A DNA stretch of 381 nucleotides from assembly GCF_003334255.1 (NCBI RefSeq), contig NZ_QOWU01000251.1; one strand, given 5' to 3'. Origin of the DNA: Escherichia coli (GTDB taxonomy: Bacteria; Pseudomonadota; Gammaproteobacteria; Enterobacterales; Enterobacteriaceae). The translations under genes and the position numbers were made by a program. The notes beneath the pieces were generated by a model that had not been told where the DNA came from, searched no databases, and was given only the letters and a program-made list of their open reading frames with translations. How positions within the stretch are numbered: the stretch's first letter is position 1; the number at the start of each line of letters is the position of its first letter. Positions 1-381 of this stretch are shown piece after piece.

Positions 1-381
1 CGATTTTTTGAAGCAATATGGTGATTTTGAAAATGGTATTCCTGTTCACGATACCATTGCCAGAGTTGTATCCTGTATCAGTCCTGCAAAATTTCACGAG
101 TGCTTTATTAACTGGATGCGTGACTGCCATTCTTCAGATGATAAAGACGTCATTGCAATTGATGGAAAAACGCTCCGGCACTCTTATGACAAGAGTCGCC
201 GCAGGGGAGCGATTCATGTCATTAGTGCGTTCTCAACAATGCACAGTCTGGTCATCGGACAGATCAAGACGGATGAGAAATCTAATGAGATTACAGCTAT
301 CCCAGAACTTCTTAACATGCTGGATATTAAAGGAAAAATCATCACAACTGATGCGATGGGTTGCCAGAAAGATATTGCAGA
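1..381 (+). CDS. ISAs1-family DDE transposase (H-repeat-associated protein, YhhI/YdcC/YbfL-like), internal fragment truncated at both ends; codon phase begins at nt 2
   Basis: Frame starting at nt 2 is open for 126 codons through nt 379, while frame 1 has stops at 22-24, 28-30 and 109-111. The translation ([22 protein letters not shown]...[76 protein letters not shown]) matches my recollection of the E. coli H-repeat-associated / ISAs1-family transposase, roughly residues 55-180 of a ~378-aa protein. All three minus-strand frames contain stops (reverse-complement stops at + positions 46-48, 78-80 and 134-136). Paralog cannot be determined from the fragment, so no gene symbol is given. Not verified by database search. 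Confidence 0.9.
1..381 (+). mobile_element. Internal part of an ISAs1-family insertion sequence (H-repeat / ISEc1-like); element boundaries and terminal inverted repeats lie outside the window
   Basis: The only gene content is the ISAs1-family transposase ORF. From established knowledge, such elements are about 1.3 kb with a single transposase gene, so the element should extend a few hundred bp upstream and about 0.7 kb downstream. GC of about 41.7% is below the typical enterobacterial backbone, consistent with a mobile element. Confidence 0.8.

What the first reader, a model, noticed from the sequence alone, without database searches (positions are those of the whole stretch)
155..169. Candidate first catalytic Asp of the DDE triad (AIDGK, Asp codon GAT at 161-163) is intact
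The motif A-I-D-G-K is read directly from nt 155-169. In IS4-like/ISAs1-like DDE transposases the first catalytic aspartate typically lies in a hydrophobic-x-D-G/S-T/K context at the start of the catalytic core. Assigning this Asp as catalytic is my inference from family knowledge, not an alignment.
Basis: partly seen in the sequence, partly recalled or inferred. Interest (0 to 1): 0.25.

Follow-up and report, generated by a model that had tools for sequence, protein, structure and literature searches.

The report
First catalytic aspartate of ISEc1 transposase
The window is an internal piece of a well-known E. coli insertion-sequence transposase gene (ISEc1, also called the H-repeat or yhhI/ydcC), and the flagged aspartate is almost certainly the first of its three catalytic acidic residues, which is correct but ordinary.

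Summary
Nucleotides 155-169 read A-I-D-G-K in the only open frame, and GAT 161-163 encodes Asp.

The window is 100% identical to E. coli yhhI/ydcC, the ISAs1-family ISEc1 transposase. It covers residues 56-181 of 378, so the flagged Asp is D109.

- **Conservation.** D109 is Asp in 124 of 125 diverse ISAs1-family homologues (35-54% identity); the exception is Glu.
- **Position in the fold.** In a confident AlphaFold model (pLDDT 95), D109 is the only acidic residue on strand β1 of an RNase H-like core.
- **Pfam offset.** PF01609 places D109 at the same offset as IS10 D97.
- **Joint alignment.** MAFFT put D109 in the IS10 D97 column in all 10 runs.

The partners are D172 (GAT 350-352, also in the window) and E306 (outside it).

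What is not shown: 3-D clustering of the triad (no coordinates available), any residue-level structural superposition, and any biochemistry. hhalign comparisons with IS10 and Tn5 were non-significant.

Already known and low interest. Side finding: a ydcC copy has a 10-bp target duplication with matching empty sites in other strains.

The parts
2..379 (+). Internal part (residues 56-181 of 378) of the ISEc1 (ISAs1-family, H-repeat) transposase gene yhhI/ydcC. The frame is open across the whole window.
   Evidence: Translation. 100% DNA identity to annotated yhhI/ydcC. NF033564 at 183.7 bits.
2..118 (+). C-terminal part of the N-terminal helical DDE_Tnp_1_assoc domain (PF13808), window residues 1-39.
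   Evidence: Pfam: window residues 1-39 match model 50-88/88, E 1.8e-10. In the full protein, residues 8-94 match with E 1.9e-33.
140..373 (+). N-terminal half of the DDE catalytic core (PF01609 match, window residues 47-124). It covers β1-β2-β3-α1-β4 of the RNase H-like fold.
   Evidence: Pfam: window residues 47-124 match model 3-90/200, E 1.1e-10. DSSP of the AlphaFold model: strand 105-113, strand 126-133, strand 138-145, helix 148-161, strand 168-171.
149..175 (+). Strand β1 of the catalytic core (YhhI 105-113, VIAIDGKTL).
   Evidence: AlphaFold model, pLDDT 95.2. D109 is the only acidic residue in this strand.
155..169 (+). AIDGK motif. GAT 161-163 = YhhI D109, the inferred first catalytic Asp (N2 region) of the DDE triad.
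   Evidence: Sequence. D in 124/125 homologues, with G and K in 125/125. Same Pfam offset as IS10 D97. Same MAFFT column as IS10 D97.
287..289 (+). GAG = YhhI E151, invariant Glu of the KSNE motif at the N-terminus of helix α1. Role unknown.
   Evidence: E151 is invariant in 125/125; K148, S149 and N150 are at least 90% conserved. The helix starts at residue 148.
344..361 (+). TTDAMG motif. GAT 350-352 = YhhI D172, the inferred second catalytic Asp (N3 region), immediately after strand β4.
   Evidence: D in 124/125 and A173 in 124/125. β4 is 168-171. IS10 D161 likewise follows β4 (157-160). MAFFT places D172 one column from D161.

Best explanation
The window is an internal segment of the transposase gene of ISEc1, the 1291-bp 'H-repeat' element of the ISAs1 family. 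The GAT at 161-163 encodes YhhI D109, the first carboxylate of a D109-D172-E306 catalytic triad. By analogy with Tn5 and IS10 transposases, D109 on strand β1, D172 just after strand β4 and E306 on a later helix would together hold the two divalent metal ions. Those ions activate water for cleavage at the element ends, then activate the 3'-OH for strand transfer into a staggered target. Staggered insertion produces the roughly 10-bp target duplication. Shown here: gene identity, conservation of the three residues, the RNase H-like / Tn5-like fold, and the position of each residue in that fold. Inferred: metal binding and catalysis.
For: Identity: the window is 100% identical to yhhI/ydcC. The full protein scores 412 bits against NF033564, whose cutoff is 70. 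It also matches PF01609 (E 1.7e-29) and PF13808.

Conservation among 125 homologues of 35-54% identity: D109 124 D + 1 E, D172 124 D + 1 E, E306 125/125. The neighbouring acidic residues D102 and D104 are variable.

Structure: the AlphaFold model has pLDDT 95.2 and pTM 0.92. Its element order is β1(105-113)-β2-β3-α1-β4(168-171)-α2-β5, then a β insertion, then helix 304-316.

Same slots in IS10: a model of IS10 transposase (pLDDT 87.9) has D97 in β1 (92-102), D161 right after β4 (157-160) and E292 in helix 289-299.

Profile and alignment: the Pfam offset is identical for D109 and IS10 D97. MAFFT co-aligned D109 with D97 in 10 of 10 runs.

Reference triad: the Tn5 triad D97/D188/E326 is stated in PMC1847836.

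Element behaviour: a ydcC copy is flanked by a 10-bp direct repeat, and many strains carry the uninterrupted empty site. This is the expected footprint of DDE-type insertion.
Against: No experiment on any ISAs1-family transposase active site was found in the searchable literature. One genome paper states that transposition of H-rpt has not been observed (PMC3032704).

No model coordinates were available, so the distances between D109, D172 and E306 were not measured. The fold searches return no residue-level alignment.

Profile-profile comparisons of the ISAs1 alignment with Tn5 or IS10 were non-significant (probability below 1%). When forced, they paired AIDGK with IS10's β2 (VALHGRS).

Pfam itself aligns Tn5 from residue 125, after its true D97. 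Profile placement at this N-terminal edge can therefore slip.

The catalytic role of IS10 D97/D161/E292 rests on my own knowledge of the literature, not on a paper read here (one search found none).
Confidence: 0.9

Rival explanations
1. D109 is conserved for structural or DNA-binding reasons, and another carboxylate supplies the first catalytic ligand. Candidates are the invariant E151 at the start of helix α1, or D314/E319/D320 near E306.
For: E151 and D314 are invariant in 125/125; E319 and D320 are at least 90% conserved. So more than three conserved acidic residues exist. 3-D proximity could not be measured. The forced hhalign alignments did not pair D109 with IS10 D97.
Against: In every solved DDE transposase or integrase that the model matches, the first catalytic Asp sits on β1 (fold matches; the rule itself is established knowledge). 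D109 is the only acidic residue on β1. It shares a Pfam offset and a MAFFT column with IS10 D97. The hhalign alignments that disagree have probability below 1% and break strand order, pairing β1 with β2.
Confidence: 0.05
2. The triad is intact in sequence but the protein is a domesticated or inactive relic. On this view the H-repeat is a passive component of Rhs regions, so the Asp has no present catalytic function.
For: [quoted passage not shown] The yhhI copy next to rhsB has no flanking direct repeat. The element is nearly ubiquitous and mostly chromosomal in E. coli: 5311 of 5426 genomes, median 5 places per genome.
Against: The D/D/E columns are almost perfectly conserved over homologues down to 35% identity, which argues for selection on catalysis. 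The ydcC copy has a clean 10-bp target duplication. The exact empty site is contiguous at 99.7% identity in other genomes, so the element has inserted within E. coli. Copy number varies from 1 to 11 places per genome. Another ISAs1-family element, ISPmar4, was captured in a trap-plasmid transposition assay (PMC3281130).
Confidence: 0.05

Closest known systems
ISAs1-family transposases (ISAs1 of Aeromonas salmonicida, IS1358, ISPmar4; E. coli H-repeat proteins YhhI/YdcC/YbfD = ISEc1)
   Same: The window is 100% identical to yhhI/ydcC. NF033564 is an equivalog model and the match is far above its cutoff. Domain pair is PF13808 + PF01609. The element is 1291 bp with a single ORF, imperfect terminal inverted repeats and a 10-bp target duplication.
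   Different: Nothing differs; this is a member.
IS10/Tn10 transposase (IS4 family; DDE = D97, D161, E292)
   Same: Same Pfam family with the same model start. Nearly the same spacing: D-63-D-133-E in YhhI against D-63-D-130-E in IS10 (residues between the triad positions). Same order of secondary-structure elements, with the three acidic residues in the same slots. D109 and D97 share a MAFFT column.
   Different: No significant direct sequence or profile similarity. IS10 has the Y-(2)-R-(3)-E-(6)-K signature (Y285, R288, E292, K299). YhhI has I299, H302, E306, L313 within the motif R-x-H-W-x-[IV]-E-N-x-L-H-W-x-L-D. The N-terminal domains differ, since PF13808 is absent from IS10.
Tn5 transposase (IS50; PDB 1MUH/1MM8; DDE = D97, D188, E326)
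   Different: About 10% sequence identity. Tn5 has a longer β1-β2 loop and wider D-D spacing (91 against 63). Tn5 has its own DNA-binding (PF14706) and C-terminal dimerisation domains. YhhI lacks the YREK signature.

Membership tests
ISAs1 family of insertion sequences (ISEc1 / H-repeat) | Transposase matches the curated ISAs1 equivalog model above its cutoff. | tested here: met
   NF033564: the window fragment scores 183.7 bits and the full YhhI 412.4 bits, against a cutoff of 70.
ISAs1 family of insertion sequences (ISEc1 / H-repeat) | Element of about 1.2-1.3 kb with one long ORF, short imperfect terminal inverted repeats and 8-10 bp target duplication. This family description is from my own knowledge of ISfinder. 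| tested here: met
   A 1291-bp block is shared by the yhhI and ydcC loci. The ends are CAGGGAAAGAT... and ...ATCTTGCCCTG. The ydcC copy is flanked by a 10-bp direct repeat GCCCGACATG, and empty sites exist in other genomes. The element ends lie outside the 381-nt window.
DDE transposases, Pfam DDE_Tnp_1 (PF01609) | Significant match to the PF01609 profile. | tested here: met
   E 1.1e-10 for the window and 1.7e-29 for full YhhI, residues 102-343 against model 3-200.
DDE transposases, Pfam DDE_Tnp_1 (PF01609) | RNase H-like catalytic fold (β1-β2-β3-α1-β4-α2-β5 ... α). | tested here: met
DDE transposases, Pfam DDE_Tnp_1 (PF01609) | Three conserved carboxylates: on β1, after β4, and on a C-terminal helix. 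| tested here: met
   D109 124/125 (+1 E), D172 124/125 (+1 E), E306 125/125. Positions relative to strands and helices are, and the same slots hold in the IS10 model.
DDE transposases, Pfam DDE_Tnp_1 (PF01609) | The three carboxylates cluster in space and bind two divalent metal ions; mutating them abolishes catalysis. | not testable with these tools
   The structure tool returns no coordinates, and no biochemistry is possible. No published mutagenesis of an ISAs1-family enzyme was found.
IS4 family in the strict sense (De Palmenaer et al. 2008, PMC2266710) | Y-(2)-R-(3)-E-(6)-K signature in the C1 region around the catalytic Glu. | tested here: not met
   The definition is from PMC2266710. 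In YhhI, E306-7 is I299, E306-4 is H302 (invariant) and E306+7 is L313. IS10 has Y285, R288, E292 and K299. YhhI is therefore IS4-like in fold but not an IS4-family member, in line with its separate ISAs1 classification.

The most novel reading that the evidence does not exclude
Two modest possibilities remain open. (a) ISEc1, the H-repeat, is described as never having been seen to transpose, yet it is or recently was an active IS in E. coli. One ydcC copy has a clean 10-bp target duplication upstream of a vgrG gene, and the exact empty site exists in other strains. (b) ISAs1-family transposases carry an invariant Glu (E151, KSNE motif) at the N-terminus of helix α1. RNase H enzymes place a catalytic Glu in that same slot, so E151 might act as a fourth active-site carboxylate or as a DNA-end contact.
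Probability: 0.25. Interest if true: 0.3.

Novelty: already known. Interest (0 to 1): 0.08.

Why it matters
It matters little beyond annotation. The result confirms that this ISEc1 copy keeps the first two of its three catalytic residues in an unbroken frame. The encoded transposase is therefore plausibly functional rather than a decayed relic. It also gives a residue-level assignment (D109/D172/E306) for a family with no solved structure and, as far as I could find, no published active-site mutagenesis. That assignment would be the starting point for anyone testing whether H-repeat elements still move. Such movement would affect Rhs, T6SS and O-antigen loci.

Tried and rejected
- **PDB sequence searches.** Neither YhhI alone nor the 125-sequence profile found a transposase; only chance hits with E around 1 appeared.
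- **hhalign via the comparison tool.** The ISAs1 alignment against a single Tn5 sequence, a single IS10 sequence and a 51-sequence IS10-family alignment all gave probability below 1%.
- **Local hhalign.** I tried core-only sub-alignments, low mact, global mode, and added secondary-structure strings. All runs were non-significant. Forced alignments paired D172 with D161 and E306 with E292, but paired AIDGK with IS10's β2 (VALHGRS). I rejected that pairing because it has no statistical support and breaks strand order.
- **Pfam coordinates of Tn5 as a yardstick.** Pfam starts its Tn5 match at residue 125, after the true catalytic D97. I rejected Tn5 as a ruler and used IS10 instead.
- **NCBIfam cross-family hits as a bridge.** No shared model covered the N2 region.
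- **Literature.** No residue-level ISAs1 DDE assignment was found in the held library. Mahillon & Chandler 1998 is not held, and no paper on Tn10 D97/D161/E292 was found.
- **Inverted-repeat scan.** It did not by itself pick out the element's terminal repeats. The ends were found by comparing two loci.

Full report
**Observation**

The window sequence reads GCA ATT GAT GGA AAA at nt 155-169, which is A-I-D-G-K, with GAT at 161-163. This is frame 2 (nt 2-379), which is open for all 126 codons. The other two forward frames are full of stops. The reverse strand holds only 27- and 43-aa ORFs.

**What the window is**

- Megablast against 5,426 complete E. coli genomes finds the window in 5,311 of them, with a median of 5 places per genome. 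Many matches are 100% identical and annotated 'yhhI' or 'ydcC: ISAs1-like element ISEc1 family transposase'.
- In strain 503025 the gene lies just downstream of rhsB and yhhH. This is the classical H-repeat of the RhsB element.
- The window starts at codon 56 of the 378-codon gene, so the flagged Asp is YhhI D109.
- The fragment scores 183.7 bits and the full protein 412.4 bits against the NCBIfam equivalog NF033564 'ISAs1 family transposase', whose cutoff is 70.
- Pfam finds DDE_Tnp_1_assoc (PF13808, residues 8-94) followed by DDE_Tnp_1 (PF01609, residues 102-343 against model 3-200).
- Comparing the yhhI locus with a ydcC locus from another strain delimits a shared block of exactly 1291 bp at 98.2% identity. 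Its ends are imperfect inverted repeats, CAGGGAAAGAT... and ...ATCTTGCCCTG.

**Is D109 conserved?**

A search of 1.84 billion cluster representatives gave 29,902 hits with E up to 0.001. I aligned YhhI with 124 full-length representatives of 35-54% identity. Column counts:

| Position | Count |
|---|---|
| D109 | 124 D, 1 E |
| G110 | 125/125 |
| K111 | 125/125 |
| D172 | 124 D, 1 E |
| E306 | 125/125 |

- The acidic residues just upstream, D102 and D104, are freely variable.

**Is D109 in the catalytic position?**

- *YhhI model.* An AlphaFold model built from this alignment is highly confident (pLDDT 95.2, pTM 0.92). After an all-helical N-terminal domain, the element order is:
  - strand 105-113
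  - strand 126-133
  - strand 138-145
  - helix 148-161
  - strand 168-171
  - helix 178-186
  - strand 190-195
  - a β-rich insertion (221-286)
  - helices 292-302 and 304-316
- *Fold type.* This is the RNase H-like order β1-β2-β3-α1-β4-α2-β5 ... α.
- *Where the triad sits.* D109 is mid-β1 and is the only acidic residue of that strand. D172 immediately follows β4. E306 is near the start of the late helix.
- *Reference triad.* The Tn5 triad is D97, D188, E326 (PMC1847836).

**Residue-level equivalence with IS10**

The fold tools give no residue alignments, so I used IS10 transposase as a ruler. From my own knowledge of the literature, its triad is D97/D161/E292.

- I wrote the IS10 sequence from memory and verified it as 100% identical to the Tn10-bearing plasmid R100.
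- D97, D161 and E292 are invariant in 51 relatives.
- Pfam aligns IS10 90-327 to model 3-199 and YhhI 102-343 to model 3-200. D97 and D109 are therefore both 7 residues after model position 3.
- An AlphaFold model of IS10 (pLDDT 87.9) has the same element order. D97 is in β1 (92-102), D161 is right after β4 (157-160), and E292 is in helix 289-299.
- Joint MAFFT alignments of ISAs1 and IS10-like sequences put D109 and D97 in one column in 6 of 6 core-region runs and in 4 of 4 full-length runs. D172 falls one column from D161.

**What did not work**

- Direct sequence and profile searches of the PDB found nothing.
- hhalign between the ISAs1 profile and Tn5 or IS10, as single sequences or as a profile, was never significant.
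- When forced, hhalign aligned the second Asp and the Glu correctly but slid AIDGK onto IS10's β2. That pairing has no statistical support and breaks strand order.
- Pfam makes a comparable slip for Tn5, starting its match at residue 125, after the real D97. Profile placement at this edge is therefore not infallible. The case for D109 rests on the combination of conservation, fold position, the IS10 offset and MAFFT.
- I could not obtain model coordinates, so spatial clustering of D109, D172 and E306 is inferred from the fold and not measured.
- No mutagenesis or structure of an ISAs1-family enzyme was found in the literature available here.

**Family placement**

- The protein is an ISAs1-family member (equivalog model met).
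- It is a DDE_Tnp_1 / Tn5-like enzyme by fold.
- It is not IS4 in the strict sense. The IS4 hallmark Y-(2)-R-(3)-E-(6)-K (PMC2266710) is absent. YhhI has I299, H302, E306 and L313 inside a family-specific motif R-x-H-W-x-[IV]-E-N-x-L-H-W-x-L-D, in which H302, W303, E306, H310 and D314 are invariant.

**Mechanism**

By analogy with Tn5 and IS10, the three carboxylates would bind two divalent metal ions. These catalyse hydrolysis at the element ends and then transesterification into a staggered target.

A footprint consistent with this is present:
- The ydcC copy in strain 214-4 is flanked by a perfect 10-bp direct repeat, GCCCGACATG.
- A reconstructed empty site, made of the flanks plus one repeat copy, is found contiguous at 99.7% identity over 300 nt in other genomes. 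3,384 genomes have a place covering at least 80% of it.
- The element has therefore inserted by a duplication-generating mechanism within E. coli, even though one genome paper notes that H-rpt transposition has not been observed (PMC3032704).
- The yhhI copy beside rhsB shows no such repeat.

**Verdict**

The finding is an ordinary feature of a very common, already annotated insertion-sequence gene. Novelty: already known. Interest: low.

Noticed in passing
window 350-352 (motif 344-361): The window also contains the second Asp of the triad. GAT 350-352 = YhhI D172 in TTDAMG, directly after strand β4. It is D in 124/125 homologues. The Glu (E306) lies downstream of the window.
   Followed up: yes
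window 287-289 (motif KSNE, 278-289): E151 is invariant, and K148, S149 and N150 are at least 90% conserved, at the N-terminus of helix α1. RNase H enzymes carry a catalytic Glu in this slot (my own knowledge). It could be a fourth active-site carboxylate or a DNA contact. Proximity to the triad could not be measured.
   Followed up: partly
L002 1683-1692 and 2984-2993 (flanks of the ydcC ISEc1 copy, NZ_CP025840.1): A perfect 10-bp direct repeat GCCCGACATG flanks the 1291-bp element, just upstream of a vgrG gene. The reconstructed empty site is contiguous at 99.7% identity in other E. coli genomes, for example NZ_CP019558.1. This is evidence of real ISEc1 insertion, although the literature says transposition has not been observed.
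   Followed up: yes
L001 2193-3483: The yhhI copy next to rhsB has the same 1291-bp extent and the same ends, but no flanking direct repeat. Its left end (2193) coincides with the 3' end (2196) of a truncated 'HEAT repeat domain-containing protein' pseudogene annotated as missing its C-terminus. The insertion may have truncated that ORF.
   Followed up: no
YhhI residues 299-320 (outside the window; L001 about 3231-3296): The region around the catalytic Glu has a family-specific signature R-x-H-W-x-[IV]-E-N-x-L-H-W-x-L-D-V-x-F-x-E-D. H302, W303, E306, H310 and D314 are invariant, and this signature replaces the IS4 YREK motif.
   Followed up: partly
Tn5 transposase residues 125-358 (external sequence): Pfam PF01609 aligns Tn5 transposase only from residue 125, after its true catalytic D97. 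It apparently matches the model's first-Asp strand to Tn5's β2, VLLLEATT. This is a caution for anyone reading catalytic residues off Pfam coordinates in this family.
   Followed up: partly
one search hit list (P0008, P0090, P0093, P0098): Some database proteins fuse ISEc1 transposase sequence to Rhs/VgrG-type domains (PF05954, PF05593) or are named 'receptor [Shigella sonnei]'. These are probably gene-calling read-through at Rhs/T6SS loci and not real fusions.
   Followed up: no
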